64,000 nt of DNA. Origin: Bacillota bacterium. GTDB taxonomy: Bacteria > Bacillota > Clostridia > Christensenellales > CAG-138. Where the stretch lies: positions 2,190-66,189 of the forward strand of contig JAEWQH010000096.1 in the NCBI GenBank assembly GCA_023399275.1, given 5' to 3'. Below the pieces are notes generated by a model. It did no database searches. It was not told the DNA's origin and worked only from the letters and a program-made list of their open reading frames with translations. Below are positions 50,231-57,678 of the stretch, piece by piece. Numbering within the stretch: the first letter of the stretch is position 1; the number at the start of each line of letters is the position of its first letter. The position numbers and the translations under genes are program-made.

Positions 50231-51043
50231 TTAGCGATCGCCCGTCTTGCCGCTGGCTTCCACGGCCGCCTGCATGATCTCTTTTGCCGTCGTATCCCCG
50301 TTTTCCACACGGACAAACGGTTTGTCCTTCGGCAGAAAACGCTCACGCTGCGCGGCGTCAAGCCGCTCAAACGCGCCGGCGTCATCCACGGCGACGATGC
50401 GTGCCATGATCCCCTGAACGGAGAGCATATCCCCCGCCTTACAGATCAGCTCCGCCTTGTCGCGCCCTGCGAGCAGCACGACCTCCGGCCCGTTCTTCGG
50501 CTCGCGCAAAATCTCGGCGCAGTCGGACATCGCCGCGCTTTGCCGCGCAAACAGCTTCGTCTTGAGGAGCATGACGCCGAGAAGCGTCGCAACCACCGCG
50601 CCAGTCATGCACTGCAGCGTGTTAAACAGAATGTTCGGGATCGCGCTTGCTGCGCCGTAGAGCAGCGTTTCGTAGAGAAAGTATCCCGCGGGCACGGCCA
50701 GCGCAGCCAGATAGAGCGCGGCATAGCGGATCCTCTTTTGCGTCCTGACAAAGAGCACCCCGGCAATCAGCGCCACCGCGCCTTTGATGAGAAACGTTGC
50801 GGGCGCGTAAACGGAGTAGCCAAGCAGCACGTCGGAGAGTGCGGACGCCGCGCCTGCGCAGAGCGCGCCCCAACCGCCACCGAGCAGCATGCCCGCCAGC
50901 AAAACGCCCACGTCGCCGAGATTGATATAGCCGAGCCCCCCGGGCATGGGGATGGAGACCAGCGTCGTAAGCAGCACAATCGCGGCCGCGAGCACGCCGG
51001 CGGTCGTCAAGCGCCGGATGGAGAGCGTCTGTTTGGTTTGCAT
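50231..51043 (-). CDS. ECF-transporter S-component-like membrane domain fused to a transketolase C-terminal-like domain
   Basis: Residues 1-165: five or six TM segments with IPMPGGLGYINLGDVGVLLAG...LSDVLLGY, the S-component pattern. Residues ~172-265: GPEVVLLAGRDKAELICKAGDMLSVQGIMARIVAVDDAGAFERLDAAQRERFLPK. This aligns by eye with the E. coli TktA C-terminus [55 protein letters not shown]. Start at ATG 51043 (AGGAGGA upstream). Confidence 0.6.
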   Translation of the reverse strand: MQTKQTLSIRRLTTAGVLAAAIVLLTTLVSIPMPGGLGYINLGDVGVLLAGMLLGGGWGALCAGAASALSDVLLGYSVYAPATFLIKGAVALIAGVLFVRTQKRIRYAALYLAALAVPAGYFLYETLLYGAASAIPNILFNTLQCMTGAVVATLLGVMLLKTKLFARQSAAMSDCAEILREPKNGPEVVLLAGRDKAELICKAGDMLSVQGIMARIVAVDDAGAFERLDAAQRERFLPKDKPFVRVENGDTTAKEIMQAAVEASGKTGDR

Positions 51044-51200
51044 GGTACCGTATCCTCCTGGTCTGGCCGGCGGCATCATCCTGCGCCGGAAAAGTTTACT
51101 ACATTATATCCACTTATGCGCCAAATGAGAATCCAATTTTCGCGCTGTTTTTCCGGCGTTTCATCAAAATAATGACTCTCCCGCGCATTTTTCACCTGCG

Positions 51201-52232: not shown

Positions 52233-52273
52233 GGAATCATATATGATATATGCGCTCTGCCCGACCTTTACGC

Positions 52274-52303
52274 GCAAAAACATCCCCCGTTTCCGGGGGA
52301 TGT
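52274..52303 (-). terminator. Rho-independent terminator after the GGGtGRT gene
   Basis: Reverse strand: ACATCCCCCG-gaaa-CGGGGGATGT (10-bp stem) followed by TTTTTGCG. Confidence 0.8.
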
Positions 52304-52321
52304 CCGGCAGTGAATCCCGCT

Positions 52322-53317
52322 TTATTTTGCCTGCGCGATGGCCACCGCGACGGCTACCGTTGCGCCGACCATCGGGTTGTTGCCCATACCGATGAGCCCC
52401 ATCATCTCGACGTGCGCCGGAACGGACGAAGAGCCGGCAAACTGTGCGTCGGAGTGCATGCGGCCCATGGTGTCGGTCATGCCATAGGAGGCGGGACCTG
52501 CGGCCATGTTGTCCGGGTGCAGGGTGCGGCCCGTGCCGCCGCCGCTCGCCACGGAGAAGTACTTCTTGCCGTGTTCGTTGCACCATTTTTTATAGGTGCC
52601 TGCAACCGGGTGCTGGAAGCGCGTCGGGTTCGTGGAGTTTCCGGTGATGGAGACGTCCACATTCTCATGGCGCATAATGGCAACGCCTTCGTTTACATCA
52701 TCCGCGCCGTAGCAGCGAACCTTTGCGCGGTCTCCGTCGGAGAACGCCTTGGTGTCGGTAACGTTCAGCTTGCCGGTGTAGTAATCATACTCCGTCTCGA
52801 GGTAGGTAAACCCGTTGATGCGGGAGATGATATACGCCGCGTCCTTCCCCAGACCGTTTAGGATGACCTGAAGCGGCTTGGTGCGAACCTTGTTGGCGGT
52901 CTTTGCGATGCCGATCGCGCCTTCCGCGGCGGCAAAGCTCTCGTGCCCGGCAAGGAAGCAGAAGCAGTTGGTCTCTTCGCGCAGCAGCATGGCAGCAAGG
53001 TTGCCGTGGCCCAGGCCCACTTCGCGCTGATCCGCAACCGACCCGGGGATGCAAAATGCCTGCAGTCCGAGGCCGATGGCCTCCGCCGCCTTATCTGCCG
53101 AGGTCGCCCCGGTCTTGATGGCGATCGCCGCGCCGACAGCGTAAGCCCAGCAGGCGTTATCAAACGCGATGGGCTGAATGCCGCGGACGATGGAAAATAC
53201 GTCGATCCCCTTTGCATCGCAGATGGCTTTCGCCTCTTCAATGCCGCCGATGCCGTATGTCTTGAGCTCTGCGTTGATCTTATCGATTCTTCTCTCGTAA
53301 CCTTCAAAAATAGCCAT
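52322..53317 (-). CDS. GGGtGRT family protein (function unknown)
   Basis: 331 aa. Contains the family-defining SGGGTGRTLHPDN motif and the conserved C-terminal GLIGMGNNPMVGATVAVAVA. Start at ATG 53317. Confidence 0.8.
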   Translation of the reverse strand: MAIFEGYERRIDKINAELKTYGIGGIEEAKAICDAKGIDVFSIVRGIQPIAFDNACWAYAVGAAIAIKTGATSADKAAEAIGLGLQAFCIPGSVADQREVGLGHGNLAAMLLREETNCFCFLAGHESFAAAEGAIGIAKTANKVRTKPLQVILNGLGKDAAYIISRINGFTYLETEYDYYTGKLNVTDTKAFSDGDRAKVRCYGADDVNEGVAIMRHENVDVSITGNSTNPTRFQHPVAGTYKKWCNEHGKKYFSVASGGGTGRTLHPDNMAAGPASYGMTDTMGRMHSDAQFAGSSSVPAHVEMMGLIGMGNNPMVGATVAVAVAIAQAK

Positions 53318-53327
53318 AGCTGCCTCC

Positions 53328-54020
53328 TTACGCTTTCCGCGGGTCGATAACCTTGGCGGCCTGGTCGAAACGCCCGTAGGTACCAATGTTTTTTTCGTAC
53401 GCTTCCTTCGGATCGACGCCCTTCTTGATGGCGTCCATCATCTTGCCGAGGTTGACGAACTTGTAGCCGATGATCTCTCCGCCTTCGTCGAGCGCGATGC
53501 CGAGCACGTAGCCCTCGGCCATCTCCAGATAGCGCGGGCCTTTGGCGAGCGTGCCGTACATGGTGCCGATCTGAGAGCGAAGGCCCTTGCCGAGGTCCTC
53601 AAGCCCCGCGCCGATGGGCAACCCGTCGTCGGAAAACGCGCTCTGCGTGCGGCCGTAGACGATCTGCAAAAACAGCTCGCGCATAGCGGTGTTGATCGCG
53701 TCGCAGACGAGGTCGCTGTTGAGCGCCTCCAGAATGGTTTTGCCCGGCAGGATCTCCGCCGCCATGGCAGCCGAGTGCGTCATGCCGCTGCAGCCGAGCG
53801 TCTCCACCAGCGCTTCCTCGATCACCCCGTTTTTCACGTTGAGCGTGAGCTTGCAGGCGCCTTGCTGCGGCGCACACCAGCCGACGCCATGCGTCAGTCC
53901 GCTGATGTCGGTGATCTGCTTTGCCTTAACCCACTTGCCCTCCTCGGGGATCGGAGCAGGGTCATGCTTTGCGCCTTTGAGGACGCAGGTCATTTCTTCC
54001 ACTTCACTGGAATAATGCAT
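53328..54020 (-). CDS. IscU/NifU-like N-terminal scaffold domain protein with ~100-aa C-terminal extension
   Basis: YSSEV...GVGWCAPQQGACKLTLNVKNGVIEEALVETLGCSGMTHSAAMAAEILPGKTILEAL parallels the IscU consensus (GxPxCGDxMxLxIKV...I.DA.F.TFGCGSAIASSS...GKT..EA). A strong RBS AAGGAGG lies upstream. It ends 10 nt upstream of the GGGtGRT gene. Confidence 0.65.
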   Translation of the reverse strand: MHYSSEVEEMTCVLKGAKHDPAPIPEEGKWVKAKQITDISGLTHGVGWCAPQQGACKLTLNVKNGVIEEALVETLGCSGMTHSAAMAAEILPGKTILEALNSDLVCDAINTAMRELFLQIVYGRTQSAFSDDGLPIGAGLEDLGKGLRSQIGTMYGTLAKGPRYLEMAEGYVLGIALDEGGEIIGYKFVNLGKMMDAIKKGVDPKEAYEKNIGTYGRFDQAAKVIDPRKA

Positions 54021-54045
54021 GTGTGAAGTTCCTCCTTGTCATGCT

Positions 54046-54067
54046 GTGAATACCCAAATAGATTCAC
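54046..54067. promoter_or_regulatory. Inverted repeat GTGAAT-N10-ATTCAC at the predicted transcript start of the IscU-like/GGGtGRT operon (candidate operator)
   Basis: 6-bp perfect arms located between the -10 box (54073-54078) and the RBS. Confidence 0.35.
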
Positions 54068-54072
54068 GATAC

Positions 54073-54101
54073 AGTATAGCAAAAGCACATGCGTCTTTCA
54101 A
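54073..54101 (-). promoter_or_regulatory. Sigma-A-type promoter, TTGAAA-17-TATACT
   Basis: Reverse strand: TTGAAA (54101-54096), 17-nt spacer, TATACT (54078-54073). Confidence 0.65.
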
Positions 54102-56271: not shown

Positions 56272-56619
56272 CTATTGACCGCCCCGGTGCTTTCGGCAGC
56301 CGCCGCAGGCGCAGCTCTCCTCCGCAGCGTCGCAAAGGACATAGTCCCCGCCGCGAATCACAAGGCTCTTGGCGTTGACGAGCACATCCGCCAGCTTCTT
56401 TCGCGCTTCGTTATAGATGCCCTGCACGGTCGTCCGCGCAACGTGCATCTGCGCGGCGCATTCCTCCTGGGTAAACCCCATCAAGTCGATCAGCCGTATG
56501 GTTTCATATTCGTCTACCGACATGACGACATTCTCGCTCGAGGCGCGCTCTCCGAGCGGGCCAAACGCCGCATTCCACGGCAAGCAGCAGACACGCCGGC
56601 ACTTCCTCGGTCTCGGCAT
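56272..56619 (-). CDS. DUF134 (UPF0251) family predicted DNA-binding protein with C-terminal Cys cluster
   Basis: The hallmark N-terminus MPRPRKCRRV, an HTH-like core (GFTQEECAAQMHVARTTV) and C-terminal CDAAEESCACGGC. GGGAGGAG RBS. Confidence 0.8.
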   Translation of the reverse strand: MPRPRKCRRVCCLPWNAAFGPLGERASSENVVMSVDEYETIRLIDLMGFTQEECAAQMHVARTTVQGIYNEARKKLADVLVNAKSLVIRGGDYVLCDAAEESCACGGCRKHRGGQ

Positions 56620-57000: not shown

Positions 57001-57678
57001 ATGGACGAAATGACTTACGGACGGATGCCGCTCATCGGTGATACTGCTCCTTCCTTTGGGGCCAAGACCACGCAGGGCGAGATCCATTTCCCGGAAGACT
57101 ATAAGGGGAAATGGGTCATCCTCTTCTCCCACCCCGCCGACTTTACCCCTGTTTGCACAACCGAATTTATGACGTTTGCCACCATGGCAGATGAATTCAA
57201 GGCGTTGAATACCGAGCTCATCGGCCTCTCTGTCGATTCGCTCTATGCGCATATCGCCTGGCTGCGCAAGATTCAGGAGATCGGTTGGAACGGCATGAAT
57301 CATGTCGAAGTCAAGTTCCCGCTCATCGAGGATATACGCATGGACGTCGCCAACAAGTTTGGCATGATCCAGCCCGGGCAGTCCAACACACAGGCCGTGC
57401 GCGCGGTATTCGTGATCGACCCGGACGCGAAGATTCGCACCATTCTCTACTACCCGCTCTCGACCGGGCGCAATTTTGACGAGATCAAGCGCATCATCCT
57501 CGCCCTGCAGAAGGCGGATGCAGACAGCGTCGCCACTCCGGCCAATTGGCGGCCCGGAGACGATGTGATCGTTCCGACCGCCGGCTCCTGCGGCGTTGCC
57601 AAGGAGCGCATGGAGAGCCAGAACGACGATCAGTATTGTCTCGACTGGTTCATGTGCTTCCGCAAAGAAAAGAAATAG
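57001..57678 (+). CDS. Peroxiredoxin (Prx6/archaeal-type AhpC-TSA family)
   Basis: GDTAPSFGAKTTQGEIHF...WVILFSHPADFTPVCTTEF peroxidatic Cys motif. C-terminal Cys pair (CLDWFMC). AAGGAGG RBS. Confidence 0.92.
   Translation: MDEMTYGRMPLIGDTAPSFGAKTTQGEIHFPEDYKGKWVILFSHPADFTPVCTTEFMTFATMADEFKALNTELIGLSVDSLYAHIAWLRKIQEIGWNGMNHVEVKFPLIEDIRMDVANKFGMIQPGQSNTQAVRAVFVIDPDAKIRTILYYPLSTGRNFDEIKRIILALQKADADSVATPANWRPGDDVIVPTAGSCGVAKERMESQNDDQYCLDWFMCFRKEKK

What the first reader, a model, noticed from the sequence alone, without database searches (positions are those of the whole stretch)
52274..54101. Self-contained two-gene module: IscU-like scaffold protein + GGGtGRT family protein of unknown function
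Seen in sequence: two genes 10 nt apart share one promoter (TTGAAA-17-TATACT). A GTGAAT-N10-ATTCAC inverted repeat sits at the predicted transcript start. There is a consensus RBS and a 10-bp GC hairpin terminator, so this is an autonomous, probably regulated unit inside otherwise ordinary genes. Gene 1: its first ~130 aa track the IscU/NifU Fe-S scaffold consensus, with Cys in WCAP, GAC and GCSG contexts. A ~100-aa C-terminal domain follows that I cannot assign. Gene 2 carries the SGGGTGRT motif of the GGGtGRT family, which to my knowledge has no experimentally assigned function. Inference: a scaffold-like protein paired with an uncharacterised conserved enzyme-sized protein suggests an undescribed metallocluster- or cofactor-dependent activity. 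It is the best candidate here for an undescribed system among genes with no known role.
Basis: partly seen in the sequence, partly recalled or inferred. Interest (0 to 1): 0.6.

Follow-up and report, generated by a model that had tools for sequence, protein, structure and literature searches.

The report
Conserved IscU-like plus GGGtGRT operon
This is a real two-gene operon for an IscU-fold cysteine-rich protein and a GGGtGRT protein that always sit together, are nearly unchanged across many bacterial phyla and are abundant in gut bacteria, yet still have no known function.

Summary
On the minus strand, a sigma-70-like promoter, two genes 10 nt apart (230 aa and 331 aa) and a 10-bp hairpin terminator form one unit among unrelated genes.

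- **Gene 2** is a full-length PF14057 GGGtGRT protein (E 5e-194). It has no relative in the PDB by sequence, profile or fold.
- **Gene 1** has an IscU fold but is not a canonical IscU. It scores below family cut-offs. The first canonical ligand Cys is Gln, and the LPPVK-His-Cys segment does not align.
- **Linkage** is complete: 78/78 testable genome loci searched from gene 2, and 76/76 testable metagenome loci searched from gene 1. Divergent members (about 50% identity) and Vibrio also keep the pair. No cysteine desulfurase or other recurrent neighbour was found.
- **The GTGAAT-N10-ATTCAC repeat** is not conserved even in the closest relatives.

Published work reports the same pair in Bacteroides thetaiotaomicron (BT0173-4) and Clostridium pasteurianum. 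It is iron-responsive, abundant in metaproteomes and still uncharacterised.

Best reading: an obligate heteromeric iron-sulfur protein, not a general cluster-assembly scaffold. It is a typical member of a catalogued orphan family, and the open question is the family's function.

The parts
54073..54101 (-). Sigma-70-type promoter: -35 TTGAAA (54101-54096), 17-nt spacer with TG extension, -10 TATACT (54078-54073)
   Evidence: 10 of 12 matches. The same promoter is kept in the closest relatives L001 and L012.
54046..54067 (.). 6-bp inverted repeat GTGAAT-N10-ATTCAC in the first ~20 nt of the predicted transcript; probably not a conserved operator
   Evidence: Searches show it is present, once in the window. 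One search shows L001 and L012 have CTGAAT...ATTCTC/ATTCTT (4 of 6 complementary). One search finds no such repeat in 75 other upstream regions.
54031..54037 (-). Ribosome-binding site AAGGAGG of gene 1, 10 nt before the ATG
   Evidence: Read directly. A strong GGAGG-type site is seen in nearly all orthologous loci.
53328..54020 (-). Gene 1, 230 aa. It has a conserved N-terminal extension (1-40) and an IscU-fold core (~41-122) with invariant C49, C77 and C106 and ~90% conserved C56. A conserved linker (123-169) follows, then an unassigned alpha/beta C-terminal domain (~150-230).
53323..53329 (-). Ribosome-binding site AAGGAGG of gene 2. It overlaps the TAA stop codon of gene 1 and lies 5 nt before the ATG, which suggests translational coupling.
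   Evidence: Read directly.
52322..53317 (-). Gene 2, 331 aa, GGGtGRT family (PF14057). It has an N-terminal helical domain (1-112) and a Rossmann-like alpha/beta domain (118-260). A highly conserved C-terminal region follows (SGGGTGRT 258-265, HPDN 267-270, AGSSSVPAH 294-302). The true start is the ATG at 53317, not the TTG at 53386.
52274..52303 (-). Intrinsic terminator: 10-bp perfect GC-rich stem (52280-52289 / 52294-52303), 4-nt loop, then a T run on the minus strand. It begins 18 nt after the gene 2 stop codon.

Best explanation
The two genes are co-transcribed and probably translationally coupled. I propose that their products form an obligate heteromeric iron-sulfur protein.

The 230-aa subunit uses an IscU fold as a permanent cluster-binding module rather than a transient assembly scaffold. 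Three invariant cysteines (C49, C77, C106) and a fourth, C56, conserved in about 90% of members would hold the cluster.

The 331-aa GGGtGRT subunit would be the catalytic or ligand-binding partner. Conserved glycine-rich loops (GHES, GLGK, TGNSTNP, SGGGTGRT) sit at the C-terminal ends of the strands of a Rossmann-like sheet. That is the usual place for a phosphate-bearing substrate or cofactor. Five invariant histidines and several invariant acidic residues lie nearby.

In both proteins, some of the most conserved segments are the ones a monomer model cannot place. I infer that they fold at a shared inter-subunit site containing the metal centre.

Shown here: the operon anatomy, the complete linkage, the co-variation of the two proteins, the IscU fold, the cysteine and histidine conservation, and the absence of any known homologue for GGGtGRT.

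Inferred: complex formation, cluster binding, the location of the active site, and a role in iron-dependent redox or central metabolism that is dispensable for growth on glucose. The substrate is unknown.
For: - Operon anatomy.
- Linkage from gene 2: the IscU-like gene lies directly upstream on the same strand (gap 10-77 nt) in 78 of 80 genome loci. These span Bacillota, Bacteroidota, Verrucomicrobiota, Planctomycetota, Spirochaetota, Elusimicrobiota, Desulfobacterota and Actinomycetota. The other 2 loci are cut by contig ends.
- Linkage from gene 1: 76 of 80 metagenome loci have GGGtGRT directly downstream, 4 are at contig ends, and none is unpaired.
- The pair is also kept in the most divergent members, at 50-66% identity, and in Vibrio.
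- Pairwise identities of the two proteins co-vary, r = 0.60-0.87.
- No other recurrent neighbour was found, and no IscS-like gene lies near any locus.
- IscU fold: Foldseek probability about 1.0, rmsd 3.2 A over 97 columns; hhalign against E. coli IscU gives 86.6% probability.
- Invariant C49, C77 and C106.
- GGGtGRT has no strictly invariant Cys but has invariant H104, H125, H267, H288 and H302.
- Model: gene 2 has pLDDT 82 and pTM 0.83 overall. Residues 260-284 and 295-301 score below 50, although they hold many of the invariant columns. In gene 1, the conserved segments 1-32 and 123-152 also score below 50.
- Literature: in B. thetaiotaomicron, BT0173-74 fall 11- to 13-fold under iron limitation. 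In C. pasteurianum, both adjacent proteins respond to iron. Both proteins are abundant and co-vary in gut and rumen metaproteomes.
Against: - No biochemical data exist: no metal analysis and no demonstration of a complex.
- The gene 1 model is poor (pLDDT 63), so the geometry of the four cysteines is unverified.
- By sequence alignment, C106 does not fall on the canonical third ligand position.
- No multimer model could be run.
- GGGtGRT's best structural matches are weak: phosphofructokinase at E 0.011 and TM 0.24, with CO dehydrogenase hits at rmsd about 19 A. Profile comparisons with E. coli PfkA and DhaK were negative. The 'phosphate-binding loop' reading therefore rests on motif resemblance and strand topology only.
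- B. thetaiotaomicron insertion mutants grow normally on glucose, so a main-flux enzyme is unlikely, at least in that species.
Confidence: 0.5

Rival explanations
1. An auxiliary Fe-S cluster biogenesis, repair or storage system. The IscU-like protein acts as a real scaffold or carrier that hands clusters to many client proteins. GGGtGRT is its dedicated helper, for example an iron or sulfide donor or a nucleotide-dependent release factor. This would suit sulfide-rich anaerobic habitats, where no cysteine desulfurase is needed.
For: - IscU fold and conserved cysteines.
- Inter-phylum identity of 75-85%. From general knowledge, IscU itself is also very strongly conserved, and many client contacts could explain that.
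- High abundance in organisms rich in Fe-S enzymes; the metaproteomics authors interpreted it this way.
- The absence of a linked cysteine desulfurase is compatible with direct use of sulfide.
Against: - The canonical first Cys is Gln, and the Asp39, His105 and LPPVK features are missing or do not align.
- A fourth, near-invariant Cys suggests a fully ligated, stable cluster.
- The pair is repressed 11- to 13-fold under iron limitation. That is the pattern of an iron-consuming protein under iron sparing, not of an assembly machine that is needed more.
- Insertion mutants of B. thetaiotaomicron grow normally.
Confidence: 0.22
2. A sulfur-relay or thiolation system. The IscU-fold protein works like SufU, as a zinc-bound persulfide acceptor and carrier. 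GGGtGRT uses a nucleotide to activate a substrate for sulfur insertion.
For: - Weak matches to SufU by sequence and fold.
- Glycine-rich loops in GGGtGRT that resemble phosphate-binding loops.
Against: - The SufU match scores 19 bits against a cut-off of 92.5.
- No sulfur donor enzyme is linked.
- Very high abundance is atypical for a cofactor or tRNA thiolation enzyme.
- The iron-responsive expression points to iron rather than zinc.
Confidence: 0.08
3. The two proteins act independently, and the adjacency only reflects co-expression of two abundant housekeeping proteins.
For: No direct evidence of a complex is available.
Against: - 154 of 154 testable loci keep the same order, strand and short gap across at least eight phyla, while all other neighbours vary.
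- The ribosome-binding site of gene 2 overlaps the stop codon of gene 1.
- The divergence of the two proteins is correlated.
Confidence: 0.05

Closest known systems
GGGtGRT protein family (Pfam PF14057), e.g. B. thetaiotaomicron BT0173 and C. pasteurianum F502_05012
   Same: Full-length match at E 5.4e-194, the same length, and the same SGGGTGRT, HPDN and AGSSSVPAH motifs. Identity is 75-95% to homologues in many phyla. The IscU-like gene sits upstream in the same way.
   Different: Nothing notable; this is a typical member. The family has no assigned function and no solved structure or detectable structural relative.
IscU / NifU N-terminal domain Fe-S scaffold (Pfam PF01592; NCBIfam TIGR01999, TIGR03419)
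   Same: The fold of residues ~41-122. The GC(S/G)G motif carrying the second ligand Cys aligns exactly. Three invariant cysteines lie in the equivalent loops.
   Different: - It scores at or below the Pfam cut-off and far below the equivalog cut-offs.
- The canonical first Cys is replaced by Gln, with an invariant Cys 3-4 residues upstream and a ~90% conserved Cys 3-4 residues downstream (the offset depends on the alignment).
- No Asp39 equivalent, and the LPPVK-His105-Cys106 segment does not align.
- It has an extra 40-aa N-terminal extension and a ~100-aa C-terminal domain with no family match.
- It is never next to a cysteine desulfurase.
SufU (zinc-dependent sulfurtransferase, TIGR01994)
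   Same: An IscU-type fold used for something other than classical scaffolding. Weak sequence and fold matches.
   Different: It scores 19 bits against a cut-off of 92.5. From general knowledge, SufU has an insertion between its second and third Cys. Here the C77-C106 spacing is 29 residues, against 43 between C63 and C106 of E. coli IscU. No SufS partner is present.
Ni,Fe-CO dehydrogenase / hybrid-cluster protein architecture (analogy only)
   Same: A helical N-terminal domain followed by a Rossmann-like domain, with conserved His and acidic residues that could help bind a cluster. These proteins recur among the weak Foldseek hits.
   Different: TM about 0.25 and rmsd about 19 A, with no sequence similarity. 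GGGtGRT is half the size and has no invariant Cys. This is a lead, not a relationship.

Membership tests
GGGtGRT (PF14057) | Full-length match to the family profile above the gathering score (27 bits) | tested here: met
   643.9 bits, E 5.4e-194, protein residues 4-330 on profile positions 1-327 of 327.
GGGtGRT (PF14057) | The GGGTGRT sequence motif | tested here: met
   SGGGTGRT at residues 258-265. Residues S258 to T265 are invariant in 99 sequences.
GGGtGRT + IscU-like operon (as in BT0173-4) | A ~230-aa IscU-like gene immediately upstream on the same strand | tested here: met
   The gap in the window is 10 nt. 78 of 78 and 76 of 76 testable loci show the same arrangement.
IscU / NifU_N scaffold (PF01592, TIGR01999, TIGR03419) | Score above the curated family cut-offs | tested here: not met
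   Pfam: 21.3 bits against 22 for the whole protein, and 22.7 for the isolated N-terminal part. NCBIfam: 25.2 against 187.9, and 20.8 against 192.4.
IscU / NifU_N scaffold | The IscU three-dimensional fold | tested here: met
   Foldseek top hits are all IscU or SufU, with probability 0.97-1.0, target-normalised TM about 0.5 and rmsd 3.2 A over 97 columns. The model confidence is only moderate, at pLDDT 70-80 in this core.
IscU / NifU_N scaffold | Three cluster-ligand cysteines at the canonical positions (E. coli C37, C63, C106) | tested here: inconclusive
   C63 corresponds to the invariant C77. C37 aligns to Q52 or Q53, and the family instead has the invariant C49 and the ~90% conserved C56 in the same loop. 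The invariant C106 lies at the start of a long helix but is not aligned to the canonical HCS cysteine.
IscU / NifU_N scaffold | Asp39, His105 and the LPPVK chaperone-binding motif | tested here: not met
   The position after the first-ligand loop is Ala/Gly. The alignments stop before LPPVK-H-C, and no LPPVK-like motif is present. The family's LPGK aligns to IscU's VKGK.
IscU / NifU_N scaffold | Genomic association with a cysteine desulfurase (IscS, NifS or SufS) | tested here: not met
   tblastn with E. coli IscS gave no hit at E <= 1e-5 in the 64-kb window, in 85 genome and other loci, or in 80 metagenome loci.
IscU / NifU_N scaffold | Transient Fe-S cluster assembly and transfer to apo-proteins | not testable with these tools
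   This needs anaerobic biochemistry.
SufU (TIGR01994) | Score above the cut-off, and a SufS partner | tested here: not met
   19.1 bits against 92.5. No class-V aminotransferase lies nearby.
Phosphofructokinase / DhaK-type phosphate-binding Rossmann families | Detectable profile similarity | tested here: not met
   hhalign probability 0.2-0.3% against E. coli PfkA and DhaK. The Foldseek hit to phosphofructokinase has E 0.011 and TM 0.24.

The most novel reading that the evidence does not exclude
The IscU-like and GGGtGRT pair is a previously uncharacterised heteromeric metalloenzyme with a new catalytic fold. An IscU-fold subunit has been recruited as a permanent cluster-bearing subunit. It would form an inter-subunit metal site with the His- and Asp/Glu-rich loops of GGGtGRT. 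The complex would carry out an unrecognised, iron-dependent reaction common to anaerobes of many phyla.
Probability: 0.4. Interest if true: 0.85.

Novelty: new member of a known kind. Interest (0 to 1): 0.58.

Why it matters
The window's locus is an ordinary member of its family. The family is one of the better-defined orphans in anaerobe biology.

- Both proteins are 75-85% identical across at least eight phyla.
- They are among the abundant proteins of gut and rumen metaproteomes.
- They respond strongly to iron.
- Neither has a solved structure, a detectable structural relative (for GGGtGRT) or an assigned reaction.

This work adds four things. The linkage is complete in both directions. 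The IscU-like subunit departs from the scaffold signature at defined residues. No sulfur-donor enzyme accompanies it. Some of the most conserved segments of both proteins are the ones that cannot be modelled in isolation.

That makes the question directly testable. Co-purify the pair anaerobically, identify the metal centre, and look for the substrate in the available B. thetaiotaomicron mutants.

If the heteromeric-enzyme reading is right, it would also be an unusual example of an Fe-S assembly scaffold fold reused as a fixed enzyme subunit.

Tried and rejected
1. **Operator hypothesis for GTGAAT-N10-ATTCAC.** Rejected. The repeat is not kept as a palindrome in L001, L012 or L002, and is absent from 75 other upstream regions. 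No universal upstream motif was found.
2. **Pathway clue from neighbours.** Clustering 843 flanking ORFs from 80 loci gave no recurrent partner beyond the pair. The Vibrio and window neighbours are unrelated.
3. **Solved-structure relatives of GGGtGRT.** Sequence search, profile search and Foldseek found nothing significant.
4. **Weak family matches for protein segments.** Pfam and NCBIfam at E <= 10 and PADLOC gave nothing.
5. **Motif resemblances recalled from memory.** These were DhaK SGGGSGHEP, the phosphofructokinase GGDGS and MGR motifs, FtsZ GGGTGTG, the flavodoxin T-G-x-T loop and the fumarate-lyase GSSxMPxK loop. DhaK and PfkA were tested by hhalign and were negative. The others were not tested and are leads only.
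6. **Natural fusions of the two genes, as evidence for a complex.** The longer database proteins turned out to be assembly chimeras with internal duplications.
7. **Structure prediction with locus-derived sequences in the alignment.** No multimer prediction was possible.
8. **Mobile-element or plasmid origin.** Plasmid-collection hits are all large non-mobilizable replicons.
9. **Literature.** Searches by family name, Pfam accession and locus tags found only omics mentions.
Full report
**1. What is in the sequence.**

Both genes lie on the minus strand.

- Gene 1 runs 54020 to 53328 (230 aa, ATG start).
- Gene 2 runs 53317 to 52322 (331 aa, ATG start). The longer TTG-initiated ORF from 53386 is not the real gene, because all homologues begin MA(L/I)FE.
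- The gap between the genes is 10 nt. The AAGGAGG ribosome-binding site of gene 2 (53329-53323) overlaps the TAA stop codon of gene 1.
- Gene 1 has its own AAGGAGG site (54037-54031) 10 nt before the ATG.
- The promoter scan finds TTGAAA-17-TATACT with a TG extension at 54101-54073, 10 of 12 matches.
- A perfect 10-bp GC-rich hairpin (52280-52289 / 52294-52303) followed by a T run starts 18 nt after the gene 2 stop codon.
- GTGAAT-N10-ATTCAC lies at 54046-54067, just after the -10 box.

The flanking genes are unrelated to each other and to the pair. On the gene 2 (downstream) side they are an NlpC/P60 hydrolase, an ECF riboflavin S component and an EamA transporter. On the promoter (upstream) side they are YhhN, RmuC, DUF134 and a peroxiredoxin. 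The description of a self-contained bicistronic unit is correct.

**2. Identity of the two proteins.**

Gene 2 is a full-length member of Pfam PF14057, 'GGGtGRT protein' (E 5.4e-194). No NCBIfam or PADLOC model matches it.

Gene 1 matches NifU_N only weakly. Pfam gives 21.3 bits against a gathering score of 22, over residues 56-113. NCBIfam gives 19-25 bits against cut-offs of 92-192. Sequence and profile searches of the PDB find IscU, ISCU and SufU chains at E 6e-5 to 1e-1. Comparison of the family profile with E. coli IscU gives 86.6% probability over family residues 56-104.

The AlphaFold model of gene 1 is weak overall (pLDDT 63), but the core at 41-122 scores 70-80. Its Foldseek hits are all IscU or SufU (probability about 1.0, rmsd 3.2 A over 97 columns). 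The last ~100 residues form an alpha/beta domain (pLDDT about 80) with no Pfam or NCBIfam match.

**3. The cysteines.**

Up to 86 family members were aligned, down to 50% identity. The invariant cysteines are C49 (GxCAP), C77 (GCSG) and C106 (LVCDA).

Aligned to human ISCU and E. coli IscU:

- The second canonical ligand (GCG) coincides with C77.
- The first canonical ligand (the Cys of ACGD) falls on Gln52 or Gln53. The following Asp is not conserved.
- The alignment ends before the LPPVK-His-Cys segment. C106 sits at the start of a long helix, as the third ligand does in IscU, but its equivalence is not established.

The refutation condition 'lacks the three ligand cysteines when properly aligned' is therefore neither met nor cleanly passed. 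The fold and three invariant cysteines are there, but the ligand set has been rearranged. A fourth, near-invariant Cys is present, which suggests a fully ligated, stable cluster.

**4. Is the pairing conserved?**

Yes, without exception where it can be tested.

The best 80 come from Bacillota, Bacteroidaceae, Akkermansia and other Verrucomicrobiota, Victivallis, Planctomycetota, Spirochaetota, Elusimicrobiota, Desulfobacterota, Collinsella and Veillonellaceae. In 78 of them the IscU-like gene lies directly upstream on the same strand, with a gap of 10-77 nt. The remaining two loci start within 121 nt of a contig end.
- Searching from gene 1: in metagenome contigs, 76 of 80 loci have GGGtGRT directly downstream, 4 are at contig ends, and none is unpaired.
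- The most divergent full-length gene 1 relatives, from a search of 1.84 billion representative proteins (66%, 60% and 53% identity), are each followed by a PF14057 gene or its N-terminus.
- A Vibrio replicon shows the same pair with unrelated neighbours.

Pairwise identities of the two proteins across 75 loci are correlated, r = 0.87 overall and 0.60 without the two outliers. No other gene recurs in the flanks. No IscS-like cysteine desulfurase occurs in the window or in any of the roughly 165 loci.

**5. Conservation and fold of GGGtGRT.**

Median pairwise identity in the 80 best genome loci is 79% for gene 2 and 76% for gene 1. This sample is biased towards the query. Members down to 47-50% identity exist.

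No cysteine of GGGtGRT is strictly invariant: C202 is present in 98 of 99 sequences and C89 in 88 of 99. Five histidines (104, 125, 267, 288, 302) and many Gly/Ser/Thr/Asn-rich motifs are invariant.

The AlphaFold model (pLDDT 82, pTM 0.83) shows a helical N-terminal domain (1-112) and a Rossmann-like alpha/beta domain (118-260). The strand ends of that domain carry the GHES, GLGK, TGNSTNP and SGGGTGRT motifs. The highly conserved stretches at 260-284 and 295-301 score below pLDDT 50.

Foldseek against the PDB gives nothing below E 0.01. The best hits are generic Rossmann-like matches: phosphofructokinase at TM 0.24, and CO dehydrogenases at rmsd about 19 A. Sequence and profile searches of the PDB are empty. 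Profile comparisons with E. coli DhaK and PfkA, prompted by motif resemblance, were negative.

**6. What the literature adds.**

- Transposon insertions in BT0173-4 raise Roc protein about 2-fold in glucose, in the same screen that recovered pfkA. They do not slow growth.
- In C. pasteurianum the adjacent F502_05012 (GGGtGRT) and F502_05017 (NifU-related) proteins both change with iron supply.
- NifU homologues (COG0822) made up about 1% of spectra in the core human gut metaproteome.
- GGGtGRT and NifU are highly expressed in vivo in chicken-gut isolates. They co-vary in rumen and colorectal-cancer metaproteomes.
- Papers from 2024 and 2025 state that the function of GGGtGRT is unknown.
- Searches by family name, Pfam accession and locus tags found no functional study.

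The third refutation condition, an already documented function, is therefore not met within the searchable library.

**7. Regulation.**

The inverted repeat is real but is not evidence of regulation.

- Six inverted repeats of at least 6 bp occur in the same 200 nt.
- In the closest relatives, which keep the promoter, the arms read CTGAAT and ATTCTC or ATTCTT. That is 4 of 6 complementary bases, with no compensating changes.
- No other locus has the repeat.

No upstream motif is shared across the family. A Rex-type core (GTGAA-N4-TTCAC) occurs upstream in L020, L052 and L057, with a variant in L036. A GTCCC-N3-GGGAC palindrome occurs in L015 and L026. These are lineage-specific leads and were not followed further.

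**8. Interpretation.**

The data fit an obligate two-subunit protein best:

- invariant order and spacing in every testable locus;
- a likely translational coupling;
- correlated divergence of the two proteins;
- conserved segments in both proteins that a monomer model cannot place.

Several points argue against a general assembly scaffold and for a fixed cluster-bearing subunit:

- the rearranged ligand set with a fourth cysteine;
- the non-conserved Asp39 position and the LPPVK-His-Cys segment that does not align;
- the absence of any linked sulfur donor;
- strong repression under iron limitation, which is the behaviour of an iron-consuming protein;
- dispensability for growth in B. thetaiotaomicron.

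GGGtGRT, with phosphate-loop-like motifs on a Rossmann-like sheet and invariant His, Asp and Glu residues, is the likely catalytic or ligand-binding partner. The reaction is unknown.

The main rival is an auxiliary, desulfurase-independent Fe-S biogenesis or repair system. It is not excluded. It would explain the extreme conservation through many client contacts.

**9. Verdict.**

The feature is real and the linkage claim is strongly confirmed. The scaffold and operator details are only partly right.

The locus is a typical member of a catalogued family whose pairing has already been noted in print. Its function remains unknown. For that reason novelty is rated 'new member of a known kind'. 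Interest stays moderately high because the open question is sharp, general to anaerobes and directly testable.

Noticed in passing
L020 (about -120 from the gene 1 start), L052 (-88), L057 (-99), L036 (-90): Rex-operator-like cores (GTGAA-N4-TTCAC; GGTGA-N6-TCACC in L036) lie upstream of the pair in one Oscillospiraceae and three Erysipelotrichaceae-type loci. In the latter they sit just after a TATAAT box. About 0.02-0.05 such matches would be expected by chance in the 15 kb surveyed. This hints at NADH/NAD-responsive control in some lineages.
   Followed up: partly
L015 (-103) and L026 (-78), with a degenerate copy in L041: A GC-cored palindrome, TTGTCCCGG(C/T)GGGACAA, lies upstream of the pair in Eubacterium and Clostridium loci. 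The regulator is unknown.
   Followed up: no
window 50231-51079 (-): A 282-aa ORF combines an ECF-type riboflavin transporter S component (residues 19-170) with a C-terminal region matching the transketolase-like C-terminal domain (190-265). This is an unusual combination for a membrane S component.
   Followed up: no
Proteins P0001, P0344, P0392, P0394, P0397, P0398 (database homologues): The 'longer' homologues of both genes contain internal tandem duplications of 60-120 residues with slightly different sequence. They look like metagenome assembly chimeras between strains, as can happen with very conserved genes. They are not true fusions or domain gains.
   Followed up: yes
L083 20-343: In one divergent metagenome locus, the gene just upstream of the pair matches the third domain of aconitase X (AcnX_3rd), an Fe-S dehydratase family. 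This is a single occurrence.
   Followed up: no
L084 8242-9951 (Vibrio sp. THAF191d, 1.85-Mb replicon): The pair also occurs in a few marine Vibrio and Persicobacter genomes, on large non-mobilizable secondary replicons. It is therefore not strictly confined to obligate gut anaerobes, and its patchy presence suggests lateral transfer.
   Followed up: partly
window 52250-52861 (+), 52943-53350 (+), 53689-54015 (+): Long ORFs antisense to both genes (up to 203 aa) are by-products of the GC-rich coding sequence. They have no support as genes.
   Followed up: partly
window 56272-56619 (-) and 57001-57678 (+): A DUF134 protein with a C-terminal Cys cluster and a 1-Cys/AhpC-type peroxiredoxin lie about 2-3 kb from the pair. 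The same neighbourhood (YhhN, RmuC, EamA) is kept only in the closest relatives (L001, L002), so no functional link is implied.
   Followed up: partly
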